Source: an uncultured Pseudomonadota bacterium (GTDB lineage Bacteria; Babelota; Babeliae; Babelales; CAIQNR01). From it: a DNA stretch of 64,000 nt. Of this stretch, positions 4,199-64,000 are shown one piece after another. The DNA lies in contig CAZRXF010000004.1 of NCBI GenBank assembly GCA_964604015.1, positions 4,861-68,860 on the forward strand, read 5' to 3'. Numbering within the stretch: the first letter of the stretch is position 1; each line of letters begins with the position of its first letter. The notes under the pieces were generated by a model. It was not told where the DNA came from, did not search any database, and saw only the letters and a list, made by a program, of their open reading frames with translations. A program made the translations under genes and the position numbers.

Positions 4199-7100
4199 TT
4201 AGTTTTGTTTACTGGCCTTACCTACAAGAGCAGTTACAAAATCTCTGAGTAAAGCGTTAAGTTTTGTTTTATTAGATTCTGCTAGAGCCGGATCTTTGCT
4301 TAATGTCTGTACAAGCGACGATTTTTCAGGAAGTGGAATGTCGGTTGAGGTTATAATTCTTTTCATAAGGTAAAGAAGAAGGTTGCTTGAAAAGCTACTT
4401 AAATTTTTTGCTAGTTCTGGAACGTCGGCTCTAGTAAAAGGTTGCTTAATATTAGTAAAAAAGTTCGGAGTAACCTCTTTTATCTTATGGTATGCCGCAA
4501 GATCTTTAAATAAAGCTTCTTCATCAGCCGTTAAAATCGCCAACAATTGCGCGAGAAATTCGGCTCTTCCTGCTCTTAAGAATTCTTTATGTAGAGGATC
4601 TAGTATTTTGATTTGTTCTTCGGGATTATTCATTAGCGAATTGTAGTTAGAAACTTTTCTTCTAACGTCTCTTATGAAAGGGATTTTTCCAACAGCTGTG
4701 CTATCGGGTTGAGATTTATCGAGATGAGGCTCTAGAGCTTGTCTCCACTCTCGGAGACACGGCAAAAGTTCTGGTAAAAGTTCTAATAAAAGTTTTGCAT
4801 CTTCTTCTTCTTCTTCTTCGATGGATGCTGATAGTAGTGGTTTTGAAAGTGCTTCCAAAGGAGCCGTTATGGATCTTAGGTGATCCCTTTGATTGGTGTT
4901 CGTTAGAAAAAGAATAGATGCTAGTAGGCCTTTGTTAAAATTATCAGTGTCAGGATGAACGAATAGGGCTTCAGTTAATTTTGGTGATATAAAATATGAA
5001 AGATCGTAGTTAGTTATCACTTCTAAAATTTTTTTATTACCAGTTATTTTTTCTATCAAAGCCAATTCTAAAGGGCTATTATGTCCAGGGTTGCTAAAAG
5101 GGAAATAGAATTTTTGTAACTTCATCAAGATATCATTTAATTCTTTCAAAGAGTCTGTAGGAGGGTGTTGAAATAATTCTCCTTGCTCAAACATATCGAA
5201 GATCCGTAATAGACAGTTCTCCCATACCACCTGTCTTGTAAGCCAGGAGTGGTGATTTGTTTGCTCCATCTCATGAATCTCCTGTAGAAATTTTGTATGC
5301 TCTTCGGGGCTCTTAAAAGAGTCAATAAGGGTATCCAAATCTGCAGCTGATTTTGCAGTCATAAGTGTGATGGCTTGTGCGCCTTCTGCGCGTGGTACAG
5401 GGTGTCGAAGAAGAGCGTCTGCTTTCTCCAAAATGGATTGATGACCTAACAAATATGGGGCATTTGTTATTTTTAATGCCTGTATGAAAGCGGGAGTTTC
5501 AGCTTTAATTTTCTGTGCAATAATTCTTCTTGTGGTATCGTCTAACCGAGATGGCATTTTACCCGGAGTATGAACTGCAGAAAAAAAGATGTGGAAAAAA
5601 GGTGCAAAATCTGCGTCAAAAAGTTGAATAAGTTGCTCGTTTGAAGGATCGCCTTTAAGAATAGCATCGAAAAAATTCTCTATTTTTGGAAAAGGATCAA
5701 CGTCTAAGTCTGGAGGAGATTGAACAATAGTTCGAAGCTTTTGAATGAGAGAGTCAACAGAATTTGGTTTTCCTGATGCATCGGTTACTTTTTTTCGACT
5801 CTCACTTTTTGCTTTTTCCGCCTCTGCTTGAGCGCGTCTTGCAGCGGCTTGCTGTAGTTTTCTAATCTGTGCAGCTTCTTGTTTACCACCCTCTTCCTTT
5901 CTTTGTCTGCGGGATAAAATAGGTTCACTTTGAGCAGATGCTATAAATTCAAGAGGGTCGGATTGTTGTTCTGCTTTAGCAGCTGCTGCGGCTGTTCTGG
6001 CCTCTTCTTCTTTCTTTTGTAATTGGCTTATCGGCGCATCTTTTTTAGGAGGTCGTGATGATGTGGCAGTACTTGTAGCAGGGGCAGGCGGTTGCTGCAA
6101 AGATGGTGCCGCTGCTGCTACGGGTAAAACACGAGAAGTGGTGGGCTGTTGAGGTTGTTTTTTTGAAGGTTCAGATGATGGTCTTGGTGCACGAGCGGGA
6201 GCGCTTTCTAAAGTTGACTGCTGCTTTATGTGCTGTCCCTTGGATTGTTGAGAGGTGCTTTGATGTGGTCCAGAGACAGGTACTGACGATTGTGTGTGAG
6301 GAGTAGATTGTTTAGAAGGTGTGGCAACAGCAGTTGGTAGTGGTGCCTGTGGGTTTTTCCCTGTTACAGAGTCTTCTTTTTTGGGGAATTGTAATGCTGT
6401 GGATGCACTGCTGTTTGCTTGTTGTCGTGCGACTGCTGGACGACTTGGCTGTAAAGATGCTTGATGTTTGCGATGTTGAGCTGTTGTAACAGAGGAAGAA
6501 GCAGGGGCTGCTGATGATCTCTGGGATACGGTTTGCAGGGTAGGTTGTAGGTGAGATGGTTCAGAAAAAGGCAGGGCTGGCTGGGCGGCAGCTAGAGGTG
6601 CTTGTTGGGTAGGTGCTGCCTGAGTATCGCTAGAAAGAGATCCATTTTGACTAGGTTGTAATGAAGGTGCGGGGGTAACCACAGGGTTTCTTTTTTCAAT
6701 GTGTGCAGCAGTAAGAGGAGAAGCTTGTGGCTCAGCTGCTGCTGCTAAAGAAGGCTGAGGAGCTGATGGTTGTTCTTGCAAAAGGATTGTGAGGTCACGT
6801 CTTACTTGGTCAAGAGCTTGTTGAGAAAGTCCTGAACCAATAAGTGATAACAGATGCTGAATTGCTCCTTGTTTACCTTTTTGACGTACTAAATCTGGCA
6901 GGCTTACGGACTGGATAAGGGGCATTTGTGCATTGGATGCGCCGTAGTCTACGGGGGGAAGTTGGGTGAAGCTCATAGGTGGGACTGGAGAATACAGAGG
7001 AAGTGGCTGACACATAGGGTGCCCCCACGGTTGTAAAGGATAGCTTGGATAAGGATGGGCTGGAAAAGGATGCGAGTAGAGCGGTGTCCAGAAGCGCGAT

Positions 7101-35116: not shown

Positions 35117-35635
35117 ATGGGGATGTATAAAAAAGGGGCGCTTGTCGGCATATTCTTTTGTCTGTTCAAGAATGCGGCAGGAGCGTTTTCCGGGGATATA
35201 GAACAAAGAAATTTTTTGAGACTTGAGCAGCTGTCTACTCGAGTACATCTGCTTGAAAAGCAGGTGTTACAGGAGGAAAAAGAACGAGTCCTGTTATGGA
35301 GAAAAGTACATGATCTACAGGGTGCACAGCGCGATATAAGGATCAGTCTGGGAGCTTTATGGTTCGGAATTGCTGTTGAAGACAAGAGCATTGCTTTGTT
35401 AGAGAAGGAGGTTTGCCAGCTAAGGCGAGAGATTACCTTGCAAAGAAGGGAACTTGCATTGCTTGAACAACGTTTTTTCGATGGCGATGCAAATTCTCAA
35501 GAAGCTACTTCTGGATCGCGTCTCGTATCGGTGGAAAATACTGAACCTGAAGGACCAACAAGCCCTCTCCTGCCTCCTTCTATTGGATCAAGAGTGGTGC
35601 TCCATTCATCCGAGCAAAGGGGAGGGACCGCATGA
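35117..35635 (+). CDS. Hypothetical exported coiled-coil protein
   Basis: N-terminus GALVGIFFCLFKNAAGA, GAGGGG before the ATG, and heptad-like L/E/Q/R sequence. Confidence 0.55.
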   Translation: MGMYKKGALVGIFFCLFKNAAGAFSGDIEQRNFLRLEQLSTRVHLLEKQVLQEEKERVLLWRKVHDLQGAQRDIRISLGALWFGIAVEDKSIALLEKEVCQLRREITLQRRELALLEQRFFDGDANSQEATSGSRLVSVENTEPEGPTSPLLPPSIGSRVVLHSSEQRGGTA

Positions 35636-36264
35636 AACGAAAACTTTTACTGAGTGTACTGCTTTCACTCGTCCCGTTTCAGACGCAAGCAAGTGTTGAT
35701 GGCAATGCTGATGGGAAGGATGTTGCGATTGTTGTTCTTGCTTGTGGAACGGCGTTTATGTCGGGTGCATGGTTGGTGTGGTGTTGGTACACAAGGTCAG
35801 TGAAGCGAGAACTACAGTATAATTTGGCTCATGCGCAAGGGGAATTAGGAAGAACACAAGGACAATTGCGGGGAGCGGAGGACCGATTGCAGCAGCTTGC
35901 TCAGGCGATAGGTCCTGTAGTTGAAGACACAAGAAGAACGAATCGGGCTGTGGGTGACGCACAGACTCGGATTCAGGCAGTGCGAGATGCAGCACTTGCA
36001 CAGTTGCAACGAGCAACAGCGGCAGGAAGTGCTGACGAAGTTTGGATAACTATGCAGAACGGGGGACCTCCGCCCTCTTATAATGCTCCGCATGTGTCAC
36101 TTGCGCAGCTTTTACCCCCTGCCTTACAGTCAGGTGTTACAGAAACTGACTTGAGACAAGGACCAGCTTACCAGCAAGAAGGTTTTGGTGATGAACAGGA
36201 GCAGGTTGATGGGGTACAGGGGCGAATTGGTGGAGCGGCAGGGTTTAACGACGAAGAAGCCTGA
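35632..36264 (+). CDS. Hypothetical membrane/exported coiled-coil protein
   Basis: ATGA overlap with the upstream ORF. Signal MKRKLLLSVLLSLVPFQTQA, TM helix VAIVVLACGTAFMSGAWLVWCWY, then a Q/R/A-rich helix. Confidence 0.55.
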   Translation: MKRKLLLSVLLSLVPFQTQASVDGNADGKDVAIVVLACGTAFMSGAWLVWCWYTRSVKRELQYNLAHAQGELGRTQGQLRGAEDRLQQLAQAIGPVVEDTRRTNRAVGDAQTRIQAVRDAALAQLQRATAAGSADEVWITMQNGGPPPSYNAPHVSLAQLLPPALQSGVTETDLRQGPAYQQEGFGDEQEQVDGVQGRIGGAAGFNDEEA

Positions 36265-36373
36265 GCAAATTGTCTCGCTTTTGCAAAAAAAGCAGCTACA
36301 CTAGGGCCCATTATGCTTTTTTAAGGCATAAATAGATGAAAACATAAAGTGTTTCTTGCACAAAGGGATGTGT

Positions 36374-36919
36374 ATGAAAAAAGTAAAAATTTTGCTCAGT
36401 GTAACGATGCTCTTGTCTGGGTATAGCGTAGCAAGCGAGGGGGGGCGCCCTGACGACCAGGTTCAAGAACAACTTTTAGCTGGGGCGGTGGCTTCATCTG
36501 ATAACTCAGGTGCAACGGCAGTTGCTGGTGAAGAACAAGAAGAAGGGGCGGTCGCCCAGGTGGGCGTAGATCCTGAGCTGAATGATCACCAAGGTCCGCA
36601 AGTGAATGGTGGTTCCATGCAAGCTGTTCTTGATGCACTTGCCCGGAACGCTTCTGCGCCACTTCCGGGACAAGAGGTGACGGGTTCTAAACTGGTCCGT
36701 GCTATATGGAGGGGGGAAGGTGTTCCAGGAACACATCCAACTGGCGAGGGAAGGACATTGACCGATGCTGAAATTGCTGAAGCAAATGCAGTACAAGCAG
36801 CAAGACGTGCGGTTGGTCGCCCTGCCGCGTATGCGCCTACAACAACGTCGTACCTTGGGCTTCCGGGAGCGGGACATGGAAGACCTCCTCATAGAACTGG
36901 CACCCTACATAGAAGCTAA
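36374..36919 (+). CDS. Hypothetical secreted Gly/Ala-rich protein
   Basis: The ATG at 36374 gives MKKVKILLSVTMLLSGYSVASEG. The sequence looks disordered. Confidence 0.5.
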   Translation: MKKVKILLSVTMLLSGYSVASEGGRPDDQVQEQLLAGAVASSDNSGATAVAGEEQEEGAVAQVGVDPELNDHQGPQVNGGSMQAVLDALARNASAPLPGQEVTGSKLVRAIWRGEGVPGTHPTGEGRTLTDAEIAEANAVQAARRAVGRPAAYAPTTTSYLGLPGAGHGRPPHRTGTLHRS

Positions 36920-37000
36920 GATTTTTGAAAGGGCCTCTGTAGGCCATTTTTTATGAGCAATAATGACAGAAAATACATGATAGGCGATAAGGAAAAGTTG

Positions 37001-37402
37001 ATGAAAAAAGTGCAGCGGTTGATGGTAGCGATGCTGGTCTGTTCAAGTGTGAGTTATGCAAGTGGCGGCCAAAACCAAAATCATACTCGACATACAAGAA
37101 CGCGTTCTGTGGCGGGTGGATCACCCCTTGTAGCATTACAGGGCAAAGGAGATGACGGGGCGAGTTCTTCTGCTCAAGAAGGTGGTGATGCGGGTCTAGA
37201 CGAGTTATTACGGATGCGTCACCTGAGTGTGGGGGCACCGGGTGGTCCTGTGCGGCCAGGTGCAGCCAAGGGGGTTCGGCAAAAAAACTGGGCATTGTTG
37301 AGTGCCGCAGCGGAATCTTCCACCACAGGTGGGGGTGCCGGTTTTTCAGGCGCAGGTTCTGAACAGAAGGGCAGCAAAGACAGCAATGCTCCTGAGAACT
37401 GA
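37001..37402 (+). CDS. Hypothetical secreted Gly/Ser-rich protein
   Basis: The ATG at 37001 follows AAGGAAAAG and gives MKKVQRLMVAMLVCSSVSYASGG. Confidence 0.5.
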   Translation: MKKVQRLMVAMLVCSSVSYASGGQNQNHTRHTRTRSVAGGSPLVALQGKGDDGASSSAQEGGDAGLDELLRMRHLSVGAPGGPVRPGAAKGVRQKNWALLSAAAESSTTGGGAGFSGAGSEQKGSKDSNAPEN

Positions 37403-37438
37403 TGTATGTAGGTGGCAGTGATTTTACAAATGGCGGTA

Positions 37439-37470
37439 AAGAAGGGACTTGGTTTTGCAAGTCCCTTCTT
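37439..37470. terminator. Perfect 13-bp hairpin between convergent genes (candidate terminator)
   Basis: AAGAAGGGACTTG-GTTTTG-CAAGTCCCTTCTT, followed by CTTTT on the plus strand. Confidence 0.6.
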
Positions 37471-37487: not shown

Positions 37488-38639
37488 CTAACCCAAGAAC
37501 TTTTTAAAAAAGCTGACGATACTGCCTTCCCCACTCGCGCTATCTGTTCCAATGATGTCAGAGTATTCGGTCAGCAGTTTTTTTGCTTCAGGAGAAAGTT
37601 TTTTCGGTATTGCACATTTCGTTATGATAACCAGATTTCCTCGCACTTTGTTGCGCAAATTAGGAAACCCTTTACCGGCCACGATAATACGCTCACCAAC
37701 TTCACATCCCTTTGGTACTTTAACCGTTTCTTTGGTGCCATCGATGCTTTCAATTTCTACCTGTGATCCAAGAACCAGTTGCGGGTACGTTAACATCAGT
37801 GATGAGACTAAGTCGTTGTCTTCTCGTTGGAACTTTTTGTCTGGAGTTACCTTGATCTTCAAAAAAAGATCCCCTGATGGTCCGCCGTATACGCCCGCAT
37901 CACCTTTTTCTGCGATGCGAAGTTCGGCTCCATCGTAGATGCCAGCAGGAATGTTTACGCTAAATTTGTCGTATTTTTGAACGCGTGACTGGCCTTTGCA
38001 GGTTGCACATGGGTGTGGAATGGTATAACCGTTGCCTTGGCATGATGAACACGGTTGTGAGTAGGCAAAAAAGCCTTGCCTAAACTGCACCTGGCCTGCG
38101 CCATGACATGCCGCACATGTTTGTACCGTTGTTCCCGTCTTTAACCCTTTGCCAGAGCAATCATCGCATAAAAAGAAGTGGTAAAAGCTCACCTGCTCTT
38201 TTTTTCCTAAGAACGCATCTTTGAGAGAAACGGTGAGTTCTTTGTAAAGATCATGTCCTCGTTTAGGATCGGGGCCCGTTGCTCCCTTTTTACGCTTCTT
38301 GCTTCGTCCACCGAAAATGTCTTCAAACCCAGAACCGAAAATATCTCCAAAGTTTTCGAAGATATCGTTGATATCCATGCCGCCATGGCCACCAAATCCG
38401 CCCGTGTTCATATTTTCAAAGTTCGCATGACCTACCTGGTCATACTGCTGGCGTTTCGCGTCGTCAGAAAGAATCTCGTACGCGTGAGCAGCTTCCTTAA
38501 ATTTTTCTTCCGCTTCTTTGTTGTCAGGATTTTTGTCCGGATGATATTTGACTGCGAGTTTGCGGTAGGCAGCTTTAATTTCTTCTTTTGTAGCTGAACG
38601 GCTTACGCCCAATATTTCATAAAAATCTTTTTTGGTCAT
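37488..38639 (-). CDS. dnaJ: Chaperone DnaJ (type I, zinc-finger containing)
   Basis: J-domain DFYEILGV and KYHPDKN, a G/F-rich region, and four CxxCxGxG repeats ([32 protein letters not shown]). Confidence 0.95.
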
Positions 38640-38691
38640 GGCTGTTTCGATGGGTTAAAAAGGGAGAATGGAACGGGATTAAGTATAGCAT

Positions 38692-39432
38692 AGTAGGGGT
38701 GTAGCGCCACCCCTTCCTGAAACCCTACTTTTTTTACTTTTATCTTTCTTTGATTCAAGACGCATGTACCCCACTACGCGTGGGGAGGCGCCAGGGGGTG
38801 CTTGTCCACTCCCTTGGAACCAGGACACAACCTTGCAGTTTGATCGCTTTTGACGGCTCCAATCCTCGTTGCGCCCTATCGGTCGACAACTCAGTTCCGC
38901 CTAATAAGGTGTTACCAATCTAGGAACTAAAACAGATTTTTGCTCTGCTGTTTAACCAGTCCAAGTATGAAAGCACTCTCGCTCATTGATCATATTCTTC
39001 TTAACGTCATCCCCAATGAGTGACAGTCGTAGCACTGCAAAAGTGCAGTGACTAGACAAAGCGAATGTCGGGGATCCAGTCAATTTAAAAAACTCTCTTC
39101 ATAGTCATTCCCAATGAATATATAAGGAATGTACCCAATTTTACTGGATCACCGACGCTCACTTTGCCTCGCTGGTGACGACGTCAAGGAGGGTGTGTGA
39201 TTGCTGGCAAGAGAAAACCTAATTCTGGAGTGACTGATAAAATGTAAGTACCCCATTAGGCGGAACTGAGTTGTCGACCGATAGGGCGCAGCGAGGATTG
39301 GAGCCGTCAAAAGCGATCAAACTGCAAGGTTGTGTCCTGGTTCCAAGGGGGTGGACAAGCACCCCCTGGCGCCTCCCCACGCGTAGTGGGGCACATACTT
39401 CTTGAACCAAAGAAAGATGAAAGTAAAAAAAG
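38692..39432. repeat. Intergenic hairpin-mosaic repeat element, copy 1: terminal hairpin, 178-bp inverted-repeat arms and a 349-bp unique core
   Basis: Arms 38728-38905 and 39255-39432 are reverse complements with about 7 mismatches by my manual count. Terminal hairpin GGGGTG-TAGCGC-CACCCC lies at 38696-38713. The arm sequence recurs at 59682-59830. Confidence 0.85.
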
Positions 39433-39458
39433 AAAAGTTGTTTAAAAAGAAGAGATGT

Positions 39459-40346
39459 TCAACCTAAAAGTTTCCGATAGCGTGTGCAGTCCGCTTGTGA
39501 GTGCTTAATTTCTCCACTGCGCTCAGGAGCAAAAAGTGGATCAAGAGGATAATCGAGCTCTTTTTTGAGGTCTTCAAAAAGCTTACGTATTGAACGACTG
39601 GTTCCGGTAGCGATATTGATTGGTTGGCCAGTGCACAAATCAGCAGGAAGTAGGCCTGCAGAAAGATTTGCCTGAACGATCTGATAGACGGGAACAAAGT
39701 CTCGTGTTTGCGTGCCATCACCAAAAATAGTGATCGGCTGTTGTTGCTTCATCCGTTCGGTGAACTTTGCAACAACACCTGAATATTCACTGTGTGGATG
39801 TTGACGAGGACCGTAGACGTTAAAATACCGTAAGCACAGCGTAGGCAGTTGAAATGTCTGAGTGTATTGCTGACACAGCTGCTCTCCAAATAGTTTTGAC
39901 CAGGCGTAAGGCGAAGCAGGGTGGCAGGTAGCTGTTTCTTCACACAGTTTTCCTTGATCACCATAGACGGCGCATGAGGAAGAAAAAACAAAGCGTTCTA
40001 TGTCATTTTTTCGGGCAGCCTCAAGCAGATTACATGTTCCGGTGACATTCGTTTCAAAGCAAAAACGTGGGTTTTCAACTGATTCTGGAACTGAAACTTG
40101 CGCTGCCAAATGGAAAACAGTTGAGGCTCCTTCAAGCGCACGTAGACACGTTGCGGCATCACGAATATCCCCCTCGAAAAAAGTAATTGCGTGGGCAATG
40201 GTAGAAAGATTTTCCTTGGTACCGGTACTCAGGTTATCAAGAACGGTAACCTGGGCGTTACGAGCAACCAATGCTTCAACAAGATGAGATCCAATAAATC
40301 CAGCACCTCCCGTAACAACTACTTTTTTGTTGGCATACTCATTCAT
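39459..40346 (-). CDS. NAD-dependent sugar-nucleotide epimerase/dehydratase (GalE-like SDR)
   Basis: VVVTGGAGFIGSHLVEAL Rossmann motif and YAWSKLFGE (YxxxK). ATGA-coupled to the upstream gene. Confidence 0.8.
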   Translation of the reverse strand: MNEYANKKVVVTGGAGFIGSHLVEALVARNAQVTVLDNLSTGTKENLSTIAHAITFFEGDIRDAATCLRALEGASTVFHLAAQVSVPESVENPRFCFETNVTGTCNLLEAARKNDIERFVFSSSCAVYGDQGKLCEETATCHPASPYAWSKLFGEQLCQQYTQTFQLPTLCLRYFNVYGPRQHPHSEYSGVVAKFTERMKQQQPITIFGDGTQTRDFVPVYQIVQANLSAGLLPADLCTGQPINIATGTSRSIRKLFEDLKKELDYPLDPLFAPERSGEIKHSQADCTRYRKLLG

Positions 40347-50733: not shown

Positions 50734-50808
50734 GCCGGTGTAGCTCAGTGGTAGAGCAATTGATTCGTAATCAGTAGGCCGTCGGTTCAAATCCGATCAC
50801 CGGCTCCA
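50734..50808 (+). tRNA. tRNA-Thr (anticodon CGU), CCA encoded
   Basis: Manual cloverleaf: acceptor GCCGGTG/CACCGGC, D-arm GCTC-AGTGGTA-GAGC, anticodon arm ATTGA-TTCGTAA-TCAGT (CGT at positions 34-36), T-arm GTCGG-TTCAAAT-CCGAT, discriminator T, then CCA. Confidence 0.9.
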
Positions 50809-53393: not shown

Positions 53394-54326
53394 ATGAACA
53401 TAAAGATACTTTGTTTTGTGGCTCTCAATCTCGTTTGTGCCTGCAGTCTGGTCGTGGCAACGGTGTCGTGCAAGGCGACGGCGCTTACCGGTCAGGAGCG
53501 GCAGGAGTGCTTTGATGTGTGGTCGGGCCAGGAACGTGGGGTCTTCACGGAGCGGGCAGCGCGTGCTATGGTTGCTGACTATTTTAAGGCCAGAGCTGGC
53601 GAATCCTTTCCGGACGGATTATTCACTCCTCGCCGAAAGGATTTTGAGAGCTGGATCGGGGATGTTTTCCTTCTCATGCTCAATAAAGCAAACGTCATTA
53701 GCTTAGCGCGGGAAGACGCAGTGGTTGATGATGTTCGGAATATCGTCAAAGCTTCTCAAAACGACCTTAAAAAGATAGTACAACGAAGGAACAAAAAACT
53801 TTCCCCAACAGAAGTTCATAGGCAAGAGGTTAAAAGACTCGTGGCGTGGATTCGGCTTCTCCCTGAATGGCAGACCTATGAGGAAAGGAAGAGCGGAGGG
53901 TGCAGGCAATCTGATTCTGGGCAGCAGGGGGATTTTGATGTGTGGTATGACCAAGGGCGTGGAGTTTTTACACCACAGGAAGCACGTGCTATGGTAACGA
54001 GATATCTCAAGGTAAAGGCTGGTGAATCTTTTTCGTTCTCTCGGCAAAAAGATCTTGAAGATTTTATGCGGGATTCTCTGCTTGTGATGCTCGCTGGAGC
54101 GAAAATTATTCTCTTAGGCAATCCAGACTCTGAAGACGATGTGAAGGCCGTTGTAAAGCTCTCTCGAGAAAAACTCAAAGAAACGTCTTATGAAGTTGAA
54201 GCACACAACCGGTTCGATGCTCGTCGTCGGCAAGAGGTTAAAAGGCTGGTTGCGTGGATTCGCCTTCTTCCCGAATGGCAAGCATATGAAGACAAGATGA
54301 GCAAGATATGTGGGTGTTCTAAATAG
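53394..54326 (+). CDS. Secreted protein built from two tandem ~141-aa repeats (unknown function)
   Basis: AGGAGGG before the ATG. Signal MNIKILCFVALNLVCACSLVVA. Repeat units start at FDVW (53511 and 53934) and each ends with RQEVKRLVAWIRLLPEWQ[TA]YE. Confidence 0.75.
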   Translation: MNIKILCFVALNLVCACSLVVATVSCKATALTGQERQECFDVWSGQERGVFTERAARAMVADYFKARAGESFPDGLFTPRRKDFESWIGDVFLLMLNKANVISLAREDAVVDDVRNIVKASQNDLKKIVQRRNKKLSPTEVHRQEVKRLVAWIRLLPEWQTYEERKSGGCRQSDSGQQGDFDVWYDQGRGVFTPQEARAMVTRYLKVKAGESFSFSRQKDLEDFMRDSLLVMLAGAKIILLGNPDSEDDVKAVVKLSREKLKETSYEVEAHNRFDARRRQEVKRLVAWIRLLPEWQAYEDKMSKICGCSK

Positions 54327-57865: not shown

Positions 57866-59374
57866 ATGACAAAAGAAAAAGCTCCTGATGCAGCACTGCA
57901 TCACTCCCATGCTGAATCACAAGAACACCTCGTTCGCGTAGAAAAGGTAAAAAAACTGCGCGAAATGGGAATTGAGCCATGGCCTGAAAGTAAACAGGTT
58001 ACTGGTACGTGCCATGAAGTCGTGGAGCAATTTGAGCGTGACGAAGAAAAGGAATATGCCGTTGCTGGACGCTTAGTAGCATTACGCGGTCACGGTAAGA
58101 CTATGTTTGGTAAGCTGCAAGATCGGTCAGGGACAGTGCAGCTTTATTTCAAACAAGACACGCTGGGCGATGAGGCTTTTAGCTTGCTTGAAAAGTTTGT
58201 AGATCTTGGAGATTTGCTTTGGGTTCGTGGTGTTTCTTTCAAAACAAAAACAGGTGAAGTCACGCTTCGTGTTGATGAGTTGACGCTGCTTGCTAAATGT
58301 TTGCATCCGCTGCCTGAAAAATTTCACGGGCTTACTGATATCGAAACTCGCTACCGTCAGCGCTACCTCGATCTGATTACCGATGAGGAAAGCAGGACTC
58401 GCTTTATTGCGCGATCAAAAATTATCAGTGGCATTCGTCACTATCTTGAAGATCATGGGTTTATGGAAGTGGAAACACCGATGCTCCATCCCATTCCTGG
58501 AGGTGCTGCAGCTCGTCCTTTTGTGACGCATCACAATGCACTCAATTCTGAATTTTTCCTTAGAATTGCTCCTGAATTGTACCTAAAACGTTTGGTCGTT
58601 GGTGGTTTTGAACGGGTGTATGAAATCAATAGAAACTTTAGAAATGAAGGAGTTTCTACTCGTCATAATCCAGAGTTTACGATGCTTGAGTTCTATCTTG
58701 CGCATCATGATTACAACTACATCATGGACTTTGTTGAGCAGATGTTGCGTACCGTTGCTTTGCAAGCGCGTGGTACTACACAACTTTCGTTCCATGGTCA
58801 TGCCATTGATTTTTCAAAACCGTTTTCTCGTTTGAGCGTTAAAGACGCCGTGTTACAGTACGGTAAACTGACTGAAGCGGCCATTGCACCTGATGCCATC
58901 GATAAAGAACTGGCAAAGCATGGCATTGAATTGAAAGTAAAAGACACTTCCTATGCACAGAAACTGTTCTTGTTGTTTGAGGAAGTGGCAGAAAAGCAGC
59001 TGATTCAGCCAACATACATTATCGATTATCCTGTTGAAATTTCTCCTCTTGCAAAGAGTGATGCACAAAAACCGGGATTTGTTGCGCGTTTTGAACTCTT
59101 TATTGGTGGTATGGAATTTGCAAATGCCTTTAACGAATTGAATGATCCATTTGATCAGGAACAACGGTTCAGAGAACAAGCAGCAACACATAAGGCGGGC
59201 GATGATGAAGCTCATCGTTATGATGCTGAATATGTGCAAGCGCTGCAATACGGTCTCTTTCCAACCGTTGGGTGTGGTATCGGAATCGATCGTTTAGTAA
59301 TGCTTATGACTGATGCTCCATCAATCAAAGATGTGATTCTTTTCCCTACTCTTAAAAAGAAAGAACTGGCGTAG
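57866..59374 (+). CDS. lysS: Lysine--tRNA ligase (class II)
   Basis: OB-fold N-domain, motif 2 FRNEGVSTRHNPEFTMLEFY, and motif 3 GCGIGIDRLVMLMTD. Confidence 0.95.
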   Translation: MTKEKAPDAALHHSHAESQEHLVRVEKVKKLREMGIEPWPESKQVTGTCHEVVEQFERDEEKEYAVAGRLVALRGHGKTMFGKLQDRSGTVQLYFKQDTLGDEAFSLLEKFVDLGDLLWVRGVSFKTKTGEVTLRVDELTLLAKCLHPLPEKFHGLTDIETRYRQRYLDLITDEESRTRFIARSKIISGIRHYLEDHGFMEVETPMLHPIPGGAAARPFVTHHNALNSEFFLRIAPELYLKRLVVGGFERVYEINRNFRNEGVSTRHNPEFTMLEFYLAHHDYNYIMDFVEQMLRTVALQARGTTQLSFHGHAIDFSKPFSRLSVKDAVLQYGKLTEAAIAPDAIDKELAKHGIELKVKDTSYAQKLFLLFEEVAEKQLIQPTYIIDYPVEISPLAKSDAQKPGFVARFELFIGGMEFANAFNELNDPFDQEQRFREQAATHKAGDDEAHRYDAEYVQALQYGLFPTVGCGIGIDRLVMLMTDAPSIKDVILFPTLKKKELA

Positions 59375-59977
59375 GAGTGTAGCGCCACCTTCGCCGTTGC
59401 GACTTTGTCGCTAAGGCGTAATCACGCCGTAGCCTTGGCGAAGGCGGACCTTACTGTAGCCCTTCTCTTCTTTTACTTTCAGCTTTCTTCTGAACAAGAC
59501 GTATGTGTGCCCTTACGCAGGGCATGCGTAAAAGGGGTGCTTGCCCACCCCTTTTAAAACAGGGCACCAGCCGTTCCTCTGGACCCCCATGACGGCAACG
59601 ACGTTTCGCCGCATCCTTCGGGGGACGGCTCACGGCTCTGCCTGATATGGACCTTTATTAAATTAAATTTAGTCACTCCTTATTAGGCGGAACTGAGTTG
59701 TCGACCGATAGGGCGCAACGAGGATTGGAGCCGTAAAAGCAATCAATCCGCAGGATTGTGTCCTGATTCCAAAGGGGTAGACAAGTACCCCTTTGGTGCT
59801 GCGCGCAGAGCGCATACATACTTCTTGAACTTAAGGCATACTTTGTGGGCCCTCACAAAAAAGGACCGCTTTGGCGCCCTTTCCCGGCGTAAGGGGGTAC
59901 AGATGTCGTGTTCCCACGAGAAAGAGAAAAAGGTCAAAATAAAAAGTAGGGGATTGAGAAGTGGTGGCGCTACACCA
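59375..59977. repeat. Intergenic hairpin-mosaic repeat element, copy 2 (both termini present)
   Basis: Inverted termini GTGTAGCGCCACC (59377-59389) and GGTGGCGCTACAC (59963-59975). A well-conserved arm (59682-59830) is homologous to 39255-39410, and a degenerate inverted arm lies at 59471-59646. A private three-way-junction insert sits at 59385-59447. Confidence 0.8.
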
Positions 59978-60045
59978 GTCTCTAGACCTTTCCCTTTCTA
60001 GAACGGTATAACGAACAGAAATTGTTCTTAGAAAAAGGAAGAGGA

Positions 60046-62235: not shown

Positions 62236-62361
62236 GGCGTGTCTACTTTAAAAAACGATAATCTTAGTAAAAAGTGAACTTGTATGTCTCCATTACGTCG
62301 CCCCCAACGAACAACGTGAGTGTTGGGGGTCCAGTAAATAAAAAAAACAAAATCATCATAT

Positions 62362-62388
62362 GAAAGGGGTAGGAGAGTACCCCTTTTT
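62362..62388 (+). terminator. Rho-independent terminator downstream of the phospholipase gene
   Basis: AAAGGGGTA-GGAGAG-TACCCCTTT followed by a T-run. A second hairpin CCCCCAAC...GTTGGGGG lies at 62301-62329. Confidence 0.6.
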
Positions 62389-64000
62389 TATGGCGTTACT
62401 GCTGGATCAGGCGCAGTGGAAGGGGAGTGAGTATGGTGGTGAGGATTTTCCAGCGTGCCGTGAGACATCATGTAGATCTTGATGCCAAAAATAGCAGCAC
62501 TGAGTGGGAAAAGGAGCCAGTATTTTTTTAACCATTCTTTCCAGTCCATGCCCACGTGAATCTCATTTTTTTCAAGAAATTGGGGAAGCTCTTCCACAAG
62601 GATATCAAGCAGATTGAGGATATCCTCAAGTGGCATTTGTTGCAGTTGGTCAAGAGGAAGCCGCCCTTTTCCTTCAATAAACAGGGGGCGGCACCGGGAA
62701 GAAGCATGGTGCGTTGCCGTTGTATGAAGAAGATGTGTTACAAAACAGGCAAATTCTTTCATGATTTGTTCGTCTTGAATGTATTTATACCGATTTATGT
62801 TGTTCCAAAAGGAAAAAAGGGGACGGAAGGAACGGGTTCGATAGAGCGCTCGAATCATCACCAAGACCGGCTCTTTAGTAATGTTAAGTTGTTCAAGGCA
62901 CGGATCAATTTCATCACCAGTGCTGTTGCTGCAGCTGAGGCGCAAAAGCCCCTGCGCGTTAAGAAGATAGAGTTTGTGAAGCGCGGGTTCCATTCTTTTC
63001 AGGAGATAGAATCGACTGATCACCTTATCAATTTCAATCCATGGCCTGAAATCAGAAAGAAGGGCTCCCTGTTCCTGTGAAAGATTTTTGTAAAGTCGTG
63101 CGGTGGGTGTGGGCTGTGAGGAGAGAAAAATGTGGAGTAACGGGGCATAGTGTTGGTTTGCAGGGGAGCTCAGGACAGTGTGTGAGAGGATAAAAATTTC
63201 TTTGGTAAAATCTTCAATAAGTTTTTGATCACACACATCGCGGTATGCCTTAAAATCTTCCCAGACAAGAGCAAGCGGTTTAAGAAGCAAACTTGTTTTT
63301 GTTGGTTCTGAAGAAGATTCGCGGGAGGTGAGTTTAAGAAGGATTTTTGCTACTTCTTCAAGTCGTTTAATGTAGTAGTAACGGTGAAACACCATATTGG
63401 TAAAAGACTCAGGTGTGGTGTTGTATTCTGTTTTGATGAGGGTACTGATGGAAGAAAGATCGGTAGTTTTTATGTGGGGAACAGAACGAGGAAGGGCCAA
63501 AGGCTCATGAGCATAGGCAGAAAGACGATTGCTGTATTTTTCATTGACCGTATCGATGAGGGTGAGGATTTGTTCTATGGAAAGTTCTTGCAGTTCATCA
63601 AATGTTTCAGTTGATCGAAGTGTGAAAGCGTCTTTGTATACCAGACACAAAAGAAGGAGGAGTTCCTTAGTGAAGGTAGGGCTTTTTATAAAATCAAAAC
63701 TTTGAAATTGGCCAATGACCTGTATGAGTGGGCCAAGATGTTTTTCTTCCAACAACAGAGAAAAATATCCAGCTATCACAGGATCGTTAAAAATAAGATC
63801 TTCTTTTTTAAATCCAAGGTTCTCAACGCCGTGAAGAAGAATAGGAACATTTCGGTCGTGGAGCGATTTGAAAAGCACAAAGCTTGCATGGAGTCTTTTT
63901 GTTAGGTAGTAACGAAGGGCAAAACTTGCGCAGAAATCATCAGTATAGACATGTGGAGTTGGTGGTCGTTGAACGGCAACAAGCGCAAGAGGAGAGTAGC
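62388..64000 (-). CDS. Hypothetical helical protein with C-terminal TM helix and His-rich tail (probably 5' partial)
   Basis: The track ORF 62388-63878 starts at GTG, but I read the same frame with no stop up to base 64000, so the gene may begin beyond the window. C-terminus WLLFPLSAAIFGIKIYMM then ENPHHHTHSPS. Confidence 0.6.
   Translation of the reverse strand, partial: YSPLALVAVQRPPTPHVYTDDFCASFALRYYLTKRLHASFVLFKSLHDRNVPILLHGVENLGFKKEDLIFNDPVIAGYFSLLLEEKHLGPLIQVIGQFQSFDFIKSPTFTKELLLLLCLVYKDAFTLRSTETFDELQELSIEQILTLIDTVNEKYSNRLSAYAHEPLALPRSVPHIKTTDLSSISTLIKTEYNTTPESFTNMVFHRYYYIKRLEEVAKILLKLTSRESSSEPTKTSLLLKPLALVWEDFKAYRDVCDQKLIEDFTKEIFILSHTVLSSPANQHYAPLLHIFLSSQPTPTARLYKNLSQEQGALLSDFRPWIEIDKVISRFYLLKRMEPALHKLYLLNAQGLLRLSCSNSTGDEIDPCLEQLNITKEPVLVMIRALYRTRSFRPLFSFWNNINRYKYIQDEQIMKEFACFVTHLLHTTATHHASSRCRPLFIEGKGRLPLDQLQQMPLEDILNLLDILVEELPQFLEKNEIHVGMDWKEWLKKYWLLFPLSAAIFGIKIYMMSHGTLENPHHHTHSPSTAPDPAVTP

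What the first reader, a model, noticed from the sequence alone, without database searches (positions are those of the whole stretch)
38692..39432. 740-bp structured element upstream of dnaJ: 178-bp near-perfect inverted arms around a 349-bp core
Arms 38728-38905 and 39255-39432 are reverse complements (about 7 mismatches by eye). Each arm is itself a chain of local hairpins, for example CCCCAC-TACGC-GTGGGG and GGGGTG-CTTGTC-CAC(T)CCC. The left end has an extra hairpin GGGGTG-TAGCGC-CACCCC (38696-38713). No transposase or other credible ORF lies inside, so the 63-aa track ORF at 39219-39410 falls within an arm. The size and geometry resemble a MITE or ERIC-like large palindromic unit. However, the arm is much longer than typical terminal inverted repeats, and the element occupies the whole promoter region of dnaJ.
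Basis: seen in the sequence. Interest (0 to 1): 0.65.

Follow-up and report, generated by a model that had tools for sequence, protein, structure and literature searches.

The report
Nested palindromic mobile repeat splitting dnaJ promoter
The 740-bp structure is real. It is a non-coding, hairpin-rich repeat found only in a small group of Babeliales bacteria. It inserted into the dnaJ promoter in this lineage but not in its closest relatives. This makes it an undescribed kind of miniature mobile DNA, not a gene or a known RNA.

Summary
Arms 38721-38910 and 39250-39439 are 190 nt long and 94% complementary, around a 339-nt core. The host is an uncultured Babeliales (Dependentiae) bacterium.

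The arms are two outward-facing copies of a ~165-nt structured module, the "A-unit". It has helix P1, hairpins H3 and H4, and a loop-flank pseudoknot. The same module recurs in a second element (E2, 59375-59979) and in four related genomes. The core is itself an inverted pair of a second hairpin repeat.

Relatives have only 64-185 bp between the epimerase gene and dnaJ, and 75-79 bp at the E2 site. The sister species carries an element at a third site that is empty here. These are therefore lineage-specific insertions.

E1 (~38691-39445) sits between a -35-like box and the extended -10 of dnaJ. Stems co-vary but are almost purely Watson-Crick (178 pairs to 1 G·U). One hairpin loop is exactly inverted between two 99%-identical strains. 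Both point to hairpins forming in DNA.

There is no transposase, no target-site duplication, no Rfam, plasmid, phage or E. coli match, and no literature.

Best reading: a non-autonomous, MITE/REPIN-like mosaic repeat, a new variant of a known kind. A structured-RNA role is not excluded.

The parts
38691..39445 (.). E1: the whole inserted composite palindrome (~755 bp, boundaries +/-3 nt)
   Evidence: Empty-site comparison with L006 (149-bp spacer), L034 (89 bp), L045 (64 bp) and L048 (185 bp). Homology to relatives resumes at TGCTATACT on the dnaJ side and at ATCTCTTCTTT on the epimerase side.
38696..38713 (.). Terminal hairpin module GGGGTG-TAGCGC-CACCCC (contains GTAGCGCCAC). It is present only at the dnaJ-proximal end of E1.
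   Evidence: The same 10-mer occurs only at both E2 ends and inside the L033 element.
38721..38910 (.). Left inverted-repeat arm of E1
   Evidence: 190 nt, 94% complementary to 39250-39439.
38748..38912 (-). A-unit E1L, read on the minus strand towards dnaJ. Order: lead TATTAGG, P1, variable domain, conserved J, pseudoknot, H3, H4, tail CTTG.
   Evidence: Manual structural alignment and nhmmer/cmsearch hits.
38791..38817 (.). H3 hairpin of E1L (10-11 bp stem, 6-nt loop). Loop bases 38803-38806 pair with 38824-38827 (pseudoknot).
38769..38785 (.). H4 hairpin of E1L (6 bp; loop GCGTA on the outward strand)
38911..39249 (.). Core. It is itself an imperfect palindrome built from an inverted pair of a second hairpin repeat (B family) around an AT-rich centre.
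   Evidence: RNA fold of the minus strand gives -116 kcal/mol (z -6.0) and of the plus strand -98 kcal/mol (z -3.2).
39054..39093 (.). B-family hairpin copy 1 inside the core
   Evidence: inverted match to 39137-39169, and similarity to window 62288-62348.
39137..39191 (.). B-family hairpin copy 2 inside the core (ACTGGATCACCGACGCTCACTT...)
   Evidence: homologous to L006 5866-5930 and to window 62288-62348.
39250..39439 (.). Right inverted-repeat arm of E1
39248..39412 (+). A-unit E1R, read on the plus strand towards the epimerase 3' end. H3 is 39343-39369, H4 is 39375-39391, and the pseudoknot pairs 39333-39336 with 39354-39357.
38682..38690 (-). Native extended -10 of dnaJ (TGCTATACT), conserved in relatives and directly abutting the E1 end
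   Evidence: Direct reading. The promoter function is inferred from consensus only.
39446..39462 (-). Native remnant TTGAACATCTCTTCTTT. It is a -35-like box overlapping the epimerase stop codon and is now separated from the -10 by E1.
   Evidence: Aligns with L006 TAGATGGATCTCTTCTTTC, which directly abuts TGCTATACT there. The function is inferred.
59375..59979 (.). E2: second element of the family (605 bp). It starts directly after the lysS stop codon and ends before the conserved CTCTAGAC.
   Evidence: Empty sites in L038/L039 (79-bp spacer) and L041 (75 bp).
59487..59655 (-). A-unit E2L: a diverged copy (~60% identical to the others) that keeps all helices
59676..59835 (+). A-unit E2R. It is followed at 59836-59915 by an extra hairpin and a duplicated link-H4-tail module.
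59376..59389 (+). E2 left terminal motif AGTGTAGCGCCACC
59963..59976 (-). E2 right terminal motif GGTGTAGCGCCACC (inverted)
62288..62348 (.). Solitary B-family hairpin (GCCCCCAAC...GTTGGGGG) downstream of the patatin-like gene

Best explanation
E1 is a lineage-specific insertion of non-autonomous, hairpin-rich mobile DNA. It is built from repeat modules that circulate in one clade of Babeliales.

Anatomy:
- Two copies of a ~165-nt A-unit face away from each other. Each carries a ~55-nt terminal extension, and one carries a GTAGCGCCAC hairpin.
- They flank a core that is an inverted pair of a second hairpin module (B).
- The result is a fully nested 755-bp palindrome.

What is shown:
- The family is dispersed, with six loci in five genomes.
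- Its presence differs reciprocally at three orthologous sites between sister species.
- Every helix of the A-unit is kept by compensatory change.
- The stems are almost exclusively Watson-Crick.
- One hairpin loop has flipped between near-identical strains.

What is inferred:
- The hairpins extrude in single-stranded or cruciform DNA in vivo.
- The elements spread or rearrange through such intermediates, as REPINs and IS200/IS605-type miniature elements do, using an enzyme encoded elsewhere.
- Modules nest into each other's AT-rich centres and ends.

Effect on the host, also inferred: E1 landed between the -35-like box and the extended -10 of dnaJ. dnaJ must therefore now rely on the extended -10 alone, or on read-through from the epimerase gene across a hairpin predicted at about -480 to -500 kcal/mol.
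For: Dispersed family:
- Four A-units lie in the window.
- Two lie in L016, two in L033, one in L035/L036, and one plus a degenerate partner in L038.

Insertion polymorphism:
- The epimerase-dnaJ spacer is 819 bp here. It is 64, 89, 149 and 185 bp in L045, L034, L006 and L048.
- The lysS-patatin spacer is 647 bp here and 79, 79 and 75 bp in L038, L039 and L041.
- The cmk-downstream spacer is 479 bp with an element in L038. It is 54 bp in L042, which is the same species as the window.

Non-coding and non-autonomous:
- The arm ORF has no homologue.
- No transposase family was found in the window or in the called genes of related loci (Pfam columns).

Structure conservation:
- 93.6% of cells are paired against 78% in shuffles, and 27-57% when the partner is slid.
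- 11 of 20 pairs show double changes.
- There are 10 distinct H3 stems and 5 distinct H4 stems.

DNA-level signs:
- 178 Watson-Crick pairs against 1 G·U.
- The H3 loop is exactly inverted (CTTGCC versus GGCAAG), with clustered changes, between L035 and L036, which are 99% identical over 572 nt.
- Hairpin modules recur at different positions: GTAGCGCCAC at the ends here but internally in L033, and CTAAGGCGT..ACGCCG in the E2 end and in the L033 variable domain.

Nesting:
- The core is palindromic.
- Its half is homologous to L006 5866-5930 and to window 62288-62348.

Metagenome contigs from other samples break inside the arms (L003-L005, L044), as expected for repeats.
Against: - No autonomous partner or transposase was found, and whole genomes could not be scanned.
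- No consistent target-site duplication was found. The 14-bp terminal motif is present at only three of the four window ends.
- Only two elements lie in 64 kb, and about six loci in ~230 kb of related sequence.
- Only one true locus was found in 241 million metagenome records, so copy number may be low.
- Some features are more typical of a functional RNA than of selfish DNA: a covarying loop-flank pseudoknot; strongly conserved unpaired sequence (J: AAGCGATCAAAC.GCA.GTTTG); an H4 loop that is always GYRNA on the same strand; and a unit upstream of dnaJ, co-oriented with it, in three lineages (window, L016, L035/36).
- Compensatory change and loop flipping could also arise from templated mutation at quasi-palindromes without any transposition.
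Confidence: 0.6

Rival explanations
1. The A-unit is a structured non-coding RNA: a small RNA gene or a cis-acting leader or insulator. It has been duplicated around the genome, and the palindromes are by-products of paired copies.
For: - Helices P1, H3 and H4, plus a sterically plausible H-type pseudoknot, are supported by double substitutions.
- The unpaired J and tail sequences are conserved.
- The H4 loop orientation is invariant.
- Single units lie 110-130 nt upstream of a start codon and co-oriented with the gene in L016 (dnaJ and ORF232), L035/36 (dnaJ), and the window (dnaJ and the patatin-like gene).
- In both E1 and E2 the strand of the flanking genes folds slightly better.
Against: - No Rfam family matches even at E = 10.
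- No promoter- or terminator-like sites lie in E1.
- G·U pairs are virtually absent (1 in 179), which is unusual for RNA helices.
- An H3 loop has flipped between strains.
- Half of the copies point at the 3' end of a convergent gene.
- The 5' half is replaced by unrelated hairpins in L035.
- Single-unit fold z-scores are modest and show no strand preference.
- The closest relatives lack the unit at the dnaJ and lysS sites.
Confidence: 0.2
2. The arms are the ends of a decayed single-strand (HUH, IS200/IS605-like) or RNA-guided transposon. Each outward-facing pseudoknotted unit would be a guide-RNA-like scaffold that reads into flanking DNA, like the omega or right-end RNAs of TnpB.
For: - The units sit at the element ends and read outward into the flanks.
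- They contain several stems and a pseudoknot.
- Two left ends abut GTAG/TAG.
- No target-site duplication was found, as expected for HUH-type insertion.
Against: - Both ends carry the same unit in inverted orientation, whereas IS200/IS605 ends are asymmetric.
- No TnpA, TnpB or IscB was seen in any fetched locus.
- Rfam omega-RNA-type families do not match.
- The resemblance rests on my recollection of those systems, not on a test.
Confidence: 0.06
3. E1 is an invertible DNA switch. Recombination between the 190-nt arms would flip the core and change dnaJ expression.
For: - Long, nearly identical inverted arms flank a 339-bp segment in a promoter region.
- Loop inversion of a small hairpin is seen between L035 and L036.
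Against: - The core has the same orientation in the window and in three independent assemblies.
- The core is itself nearly palindromic, so flipping would change little.
- It contains no promoter-like site.
- No recombinase gene is adjacent.
- E2 has the same arms but only a ~30-nt centre.
Confidence: 0.03
4. The palindrome is an assembly or amplification artefact (a chimeric fold-back).
For: Contigs in several samples end inside the arms.
Against: - The full 819-bp spacer is identical at 99.9-100% in contigs from different samples and assemblers (L001, L002, L004).
- E2 is likewise reproduced in L042 and L043.
- Arm divergence (6% in E1, ~40% in E2) is incompatible with a fold-back chimera.
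Confidence: 0.01

Closest known systems
REPINs / REP sequences with RAYT transposases (Bertels & Rainey 2011, PMC3116915)
   Same: - Non-coding and extragenic.
- Units are organised as inverted doublets that form a hairpin in ssDNA or mRNA.
- They are non-autonomous.
- Doublets are better conserved than singlets.
- The terminal hairpin here is preceded by GTAG at two ends, recalling the GTAG head of REPs (the latter from my own knowledge).
   Different: - The unit is ~165-215 nt with four helices and a pseudoknot, not a 20-40-nt single palindrome.
- The spacer can be 30 or 339 nt.
- No RAYT gene was seen.
- Copy number appears to be tens, not hundreds.
- There is no sequence similarity.
BIMEs (bacterial interspersed mosaic elements) of enterobacteria
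   Same: A mosaic, combinatorial arrangement of several palindromic and non-palindromic modules in intergenic DNA. Many copies lie just after stop codons.
   Different: - The modules are unrelated in sequence (no match in E. coli genomes).
- They are much larger.
- They are nested as a single large palindrome rather than as tandem alternating REPs.
Classical bacterial MITEs such as Correia/NEMIS (Neisseria), RUP, Nezha and Rickettsia palindromic elements
   Same: - Small, with no ORF and a palindromic overall shape.
- Insertion-polymorphic between close relatives.
- They can land in promoters and be co-transcribed as hairpins.
- Nested insertions are known.
   Different: - No target-site duplication and no parent IS were identified.
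- The inverted repeats are ~190 nt and internally structured, rather than 10-40-bp transposase-binding ends.
- Single arms occur alone.
ERIC / IRU elements
   Same: An imperfect palindrome of over 100 bp in intergenic, transcribed regions.
   Different: - There is no sequence similarity.
- ERIC is ~127 bp, with insertion variants.
- ERIC is restricted to Enterobacteriaceae and Vibrio (from my own knowledge).
GC-cluster / double-hairpin mobile elements of fungal mitochondrial genomes (e.g. PMC4478555, PMC7218506, seen)
   Same: GC-rich perfect hairpin modules scattered in AT-richer intergenic DNA of a reduced genome. They are modular and nested, and no dedicated transposase is known.
   Different: - The host is eukaryotic organellar.
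- The modules are much shorter (30-60 bp).
- The comparison rests on titles and abstracts only.

Membership tests
MITE (DDE-transposon-derived) | Short, and lacks a transposase or any coding capacity | tested here: met
   The element is 755 bp. ORFs are 63 aa or shorter and have no homologue. No Pfam transposase was found in the window ORFs tested.
MITE (DDE-transposon-derived) | Terminal inverted repeats at both ends | tested here: inconclusive
   E2 has GGTGTAGCGCCACC at both ends, inverted. E1 has it only at the dnaJ end. The 190-nt arms are inverted but are complete modules that also occur singly.
MITE (DDE-transposon-derived) | Target-site duplication flanking the insertion | tested here: inconclusive
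   Junctions were compared with empty sites in L006, L034, L038, L041 and L042. A TA duplication is possible for E1 but is not consistent for E2. Flank divergence limits resolution.
MITE (DDE-transposon-derived) | Presence/absence polymorphism at orthologous sites and multiple dispersed copies | tested here: met
   Three sites are polymorphic between sister species, and there are six loci in five genomes.
MITE (DDE-transposon-derived) | A related autonomous IS with the same ends | not testable with these tools
   The genome contigs and metagenome scans were exhausted. None was found in ~230 kb of fetched related sequence.
REPIN / REP-RAYT | A REP unit: a 20-40-nt imperfect palindrome with a conserved GTAG-type head | tested here: not met
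   The repeated unit is ~165 nt with several helices. Only the small terminal hairpin (GTAGG-GGTG-TAGCGC-CACC) resembles a REP, and it is optional.
REPIN / REP-RAYT | Inverted doublet forming a hairpin | tested here: met
   E1, E2, L033 and L038 are inverted pairs.
REPIN / REP-RAYT | A cognate RAYT (Y1 HUH transposase) gene flanked by the repeats | not testable with these tools
   None was found among the called genes of the window or loci. Whole genomes were not available.
ERIC / IRU | Sequence similarity to the ~127-bp ERIC consensus present in E. coli genomes | tested here: not met
   blastn with 11-nt words against 5,426 complete E. coli genomes gave no match.
Any Rfam RNA family | A covariance-model match at or near the gathering score | tested here: not met
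   The gathering-threshold scan of the whole window found only tRNA-Thr. Permissive scans of E1 and E2 gave best E = 0.4, with scores far below gathering.
Invertible promoter switch (inverton) | Both orientations are present in populations, with a promoter inside and a recombinase nearby | tested here: not met
   One orientation was seen in four assemblies. No promoter-like site was found. No recombinase is adjacent.
IS200/IS605-derived miniature element (PATE) | Different sub-terminal hairpins at the left and right ends on the same strand, no TIR, no TSD, and insertion 3' of a fixed tetranucleotide | tested here: inconclusive
   No TSD was found, and GTAG/TAG abuts two left ends. However, the two ends are inverted copies of each other, which is not the IS200/IS605 arrangement.

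The most novel reading that the evidence does not exclude
The ~165-nt A-unit is a previously undescribed pseudoknotted single-stranded (RNA or ssDNA) functional element that is both mobile and used by the cell or by a trans-acting enzyme. One possibility is an outward-reading guide or scaffold RNA of an unrecognised nuclease or transposase. Another is a promoter-proximal regulatory RNA repeatedly recruited upstream of dnaJ. In either case its fold, rather than its palindromic pairing, would be what selection maintains.
Probability: 0.15. Interest if true: 0.75.

Novelty: new variant of a known kind. Interest (0 to 1): 0.45.

Why it matters
Dependentiae/Babeliales are obligate intracellular parasites of protists with reduced genomes. 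Their non-coding and mobile DNA is essentially undescribed. I found no paper mentioning palindromic or miniature repeats in the phylum.

This family shows three things:
- Such genomes carry active, modular hairpin repeats that turn over between sister species.
- These repeats can split a housekeeping heat-shock promoter.
- They break metagenome assemblies.

The unit is unusually complex for selfish DNA. It has four co-varying helices, including a pseudoknot, yet almost no G·U pairs, and a hairpin loop has flipped between strains. That makes it a clean natural case for separating selection on structure from templated palindrome correction. It is also a candidate substrate for an unknown hairpin-recognising enzyme.

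Tried and rejected
- **Rfam.** Scans at the gathering threshold and at E <= 10 found no family.
- **tRNA/tmRNA scan**. Only tRNA-Thr at 50734 was found.
- **Promoter and terminator consensus scan of E1**. Nothing was found inside the element. A sigma-32-like reading of CTTGAA / CCCCATTA, and sigma-70 readings of the tail and lead, were considered by eye and dropped as inconsistent across copies.
- **CIRCE, IHF and attC resemblances** (GCCTAAT...ATTAGGC). These were considered by eye and rejected as partial or coincidental.
- **First DNA pattern.** It was specific to the window copies and gave 0 hits in GTDB representative genomes and JGI metagenomes.
- **Relaxed pattern.** It gave one true locus (L033) and one chance hit inside a coding region (L032) in the metagenomes, and none in viral contigs.
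- **The 63-aa arm ORF used as a probe for other copies.** It had no homologues.
- **Cargo of the L016 inverted units** (dnaJ plus two ORFs). No transposase was found.
- **Strand assignment from G·U versus A·C.** In the E1 arms the split is 7 to 3 in favour of the minus strand (not significant). In the unit helices it is 3 to 1. Whole-element folds favour the gene strand by 8-29 kcal/mol. None of this is decisive, and transcription-associated deamination could explain it.
- **Pairing of the H4 loop with the tail.** It is not consistent across copies.
- **Covariance model R1.** It found no extra full units in ~400 kb of fetched sequence beyond those already known.
- **Plasmid, phage and E. coli similarity searches.** All were empty.
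Full report
**1. Observation**

The inverted repeat is real and far beyond chance. Arms 38721-38910 and 39250-39439 are 190 nt long, 94% complementary and 339 nt apart. This is the only large local inverted repeat in the window. The quoted local hairpins and the extra left-end hairpin GGGGTG-TAGCGC-CACCCC (38696-38713) are present.

The element fills the 819-bp spacer between an epimerase gene (39459-40346, minus strand) and dnaJ (37488-38639, minus strand). Its ORFs are 63 aa or shorter, and the longest has no homologue in 5.8 billion proteins. The same sequence and orientation occur in contigs from other samples and assemblers (L001, L002, L004). It is therefore not an artefact. Several contigs break inside the arms (L003-L005), as repeats tend to cause.

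**2. Host**

DnaJ and LysS place the window in uncultured Babeliales/Babelota (Dependentiae). The closest relatives have 82-89% protein identity.

**3. The arms are copies of a dispersed module**

A second element, E2 (59375-59979), lies between lysS and a patatin-like gene. Its right half is 90-96% identical to the E1 arm. Its left half is only ~60% identical but collinear, and the centre is ~30 nt.

Both E2 ends and the dnaJ-proximal E1 end carry GGTGTAGCGCCACC. This gives 3 matches in the window against 0.19 expected by chance.

I call the common module the A-unit. Read from the element centre outwards, it contains:
- a lead, CCnTATTAGG;
- helix P1 (GGC/GCC, GGATC/GATCC, GGATTCG/CGAATCC or GGG/CCC), which closes a variable domain of 41-175 nt;
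- a conserved unpaired stretch, GTCAAAAGCGATCAAAC.GCA.GTTTG;
- an 11-12-bp hairpin, H3;
- a 5-6-bp hairpin, H4, with loop GYRNA;
- a tail, ACATAC.TCTTG.

The same unit is found in relatives:
- L016 has two single units 2.57 kb apart and inverted. Each is upstream of a gene and co-oriented with it, dnaJ and a hypothetical ORF. The segment between them holds no transposase.
- L033 has a palindromic pair with a 130-nt insertion in one variable domain.
- L035/L036 have only the 3' half of the unit, upstream of dnaJ.
- L038 has a diverged pair downstream of cmk.

A covariance model built from 11 units finds these and no others in ~400 kb of fetched sequence.

**4. The core is a nested second repeat**

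The 339-nt core folds as a long imperfect hairpin. The minus strand gives -116 kcal/mol (z -6.0) and the plus strand -98 kcal/mol (z -3.2).

It contains two inverted copies of a hairpin module, ACTGGA-stem-GCTCAC..-stem. This module also occurs singly at window 62288-62348 and at L006 5866-5930.

E1 is therefore a fully nested palindrome of two repeat families. E2 shows further mosaicism:
- an extra triple-hairpin block at its left end, which resembles part of the L033 variable domain;
- a duplicated link-H4-tail block in its right arm.

**5. The elements are insertions**

Spacer lengths at three orthologous sites:

| Site | This organism | Relatives |
|---|---|---|
| epimerase-dnaJ | 819 bp (E1) | 64 bp (L045), 89 bp (L034), 149 bp (L006), 185 bp (L048) |
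| lysS-patatin | 647 bp (E2) | 79 bp (L038), 79 bp (L039), 75 bp (L041) |
| cmk downstream | 54 bp (L042, same species as the window) | 479 bp with an element (L038) |

Sources: for the first row; for the second; for the third.

At the first site two further relatives have long spacers. L035/36 has 949 bp, including a real small ORF and a partial unit.

L034, L038 and L039 come from one sister organism. Presence and absence are therefore reciprocal at three sites between sister species.

Aligning the flanks gives E1 as roughly 38691-39445 and E2 as 59375-59979. E2 and the L038 element begin directly after a stop codon, and E1 begins 13 nt after one. I could not establish a consistent target-site duplication.

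**6. Effect on dnaJ**

In all relatives a conserved box (TAGATG-like) lies 16-19 nt upstream of an extended -10, TG(C/G)TATACT.

In the window the -10 (38682-38690) abuts the E1 end. The homologue of the upstream box, TTGAACATCTCTTCTTT (39446-39462), overlaps the epimerase stop codon on the far side of E1. E1 therefore split the promoter spacer.

This is a reading from consensus only. The scan tool finds no alternative promoter in E1.

**7. What maintains the structure**

On the 11-unit alignment:
- 93.6% of cells in H3, H4 and a four-pair interaction between the H3 loop and a segment 6-10 nt upstream are paired. Shuffles give 78% (0 of 500 reach the observed value), and slid partners give 33-51%.
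- 11 of 20 pairs show changes on both sides.
- The loop-flank interaction alone gives 93% against 69% in shuffles and 27-57% when slid.
- It occurs in six sequence versions: TGTC/GACA, TGCC/GGCA, CACC/GGTG, TAAT/GTTA, CAAT/GTTG and CAG/CTG.
- Topologically it is an H-type pseudoknot.

The sample is small and the sequences are related, so these numbers are indicative rather than probabilities.

Three observations argue for the DNA level:
- Across 22 hairpins with 15 distinct stems there are 178 Watson-Crick pairs and 1 G·U.
- L035 and L036 encode the same DnaJ and are 99% identical over 572 nt. They differ by an exact reverse-complement of the H3 loop, with clustered changes around that hairpin.
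- Modules shuffle between positions.

Three observations argue for a strand-specific single-stranded function:
- The H4 loop always has the same orientation.
- The unpaired J sequence is conserved.
- The pseudoknot cannot form in duplex DNA.

Attempts to assign a strand from wobble asymmetry were inconclusive.

**8. Comparison with known elements**

- There is no match in Rfam, plasmids, phages or E. coli genomes. The element is therefore not ERIC or BIME by sequence.
- No transposase was found in the window or in the called genes of the related loci.
- No literature was found on such repeats in Dependentiae.
- In behaviour it is closest to REPINs (inverted doublets that form hairpins and are mobilised in trans; PMC3116915), and to mosaic BIMEs and nested MITEs.
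- The unit is five to eight times larger and has a multi-helix fold. Neither a RAYT nor a parent IS could be tested for.

**9. Verdict**

The best-supported reading is a new family, and a structural variant, of non-autonomous palindromic mobile DNA in a Babeliales clade. It inserted into and split the dnaJ promoter (confidence ~0.6).

The main rival is that the unit is a functional structured RNA (~0.2). This rival and the more speculative guide-RNA-like reading make up the novel case.

Interest is moderate. Miniature palindromic repeats are well known. However, the complexity of the unit, the clean insertion polymorphism, the loop inversion and the unexplored host phylum make it worth a genome-wide follow-up.

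Noticed in passing
L035 9821-9844 vs L036 7411-7436: Two contigs encode the identical DnaJ and are 99% identical over 572 nt. They differ by an exact reverse-complement of a 6-nt hairpin loop (CTTGCC vs GGCAAG), with five more changes clustered within 15 nt of that hairpin. This looks like palindrome-mediated loop inversion or templated mutation caught between strains.
   Followed up: partly
window 62288-62348: A solitary hairpin, GCCCCCAAC-(13 nt)-GTTGGGGG, lies downstream of the patatin-like gene. It is homologous to both halves of the E1 core and to L006 5866-5930. It represents a second dispersed hairpin repeat family.
   Followed up: partly
window 62363-62392; L042 19838-19865: Genuine-looking bidirectional intrinsic terminators (AAAGGGGTA-GGAGAG-TACCCCTTTTTT and AAAAGGGGAAGCAGAACTTCCCCTTTT) have stems almost identical to the H3 hairpin stems of the repeat units (AAAGGGGT..ACCCCTTT). 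H3 may derive from, or mimic, local terminators.
   Followed up: no
window 1604-26792 (minus strand): Seven consecutive very large ORFs (766-1987 aa) lie here. Six were tested and none has a Pfam domain at E <= 0.001. They may be a block of lineage-specific giant, possibly secreted, proteins.
   Followed up: partly
window 35117-37460 and the homologous regions of L016, L034, L035: A cluster of small ORFs (130-230 aa), several with signal-peptide-like N-termini and none with a Pfam hit, lies downstream of dnaJ in all relatives. The cluster varies in number and sequence.
   Followed up: no
window 53816-53894 and 54224-54302: A 79-nt direct repeat (81% identity, 408-nt spacing) lies inside a 310-aa ORF with no Pfam family, suggesting an internally repeated protein.
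   Followed up: no
L035 9537-9714 (and L036 7127-7304): A further small palindromic element lies upstream of the partial A-unit. It has 22-nt AT-rich inverted arms around a 134-nt GC-rich, hairpin-rich centre and is unrelated in sequence to the A or B families.
   Followed up: no
L016 2251-2360, 2813-2832, 5303-5350: A short motif, AATAAGCTC(T)TA, is repeated at least four times around the two A-units of L016. It suggests additional small modules travel with the unit in that genome.
   Followed up: no
L041 9003-9776 and the JGI contig of P0126 (genes at 4817-6962): Relatives carry one to three C2H2 zinc-finger proteins (a eukaryote-like domain) inserted between sodA and lysS. These are absent from the window.
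   Followed up: no
window 59372-59374: E2 begins on the base immediately after the lysS stop codon. In this organism LysS ends ...KKKELA, against ...KKK in L038 and ...KKKEA in L041. The insertion site is therefore within a few bases of the coding end.
   Followed up: partly
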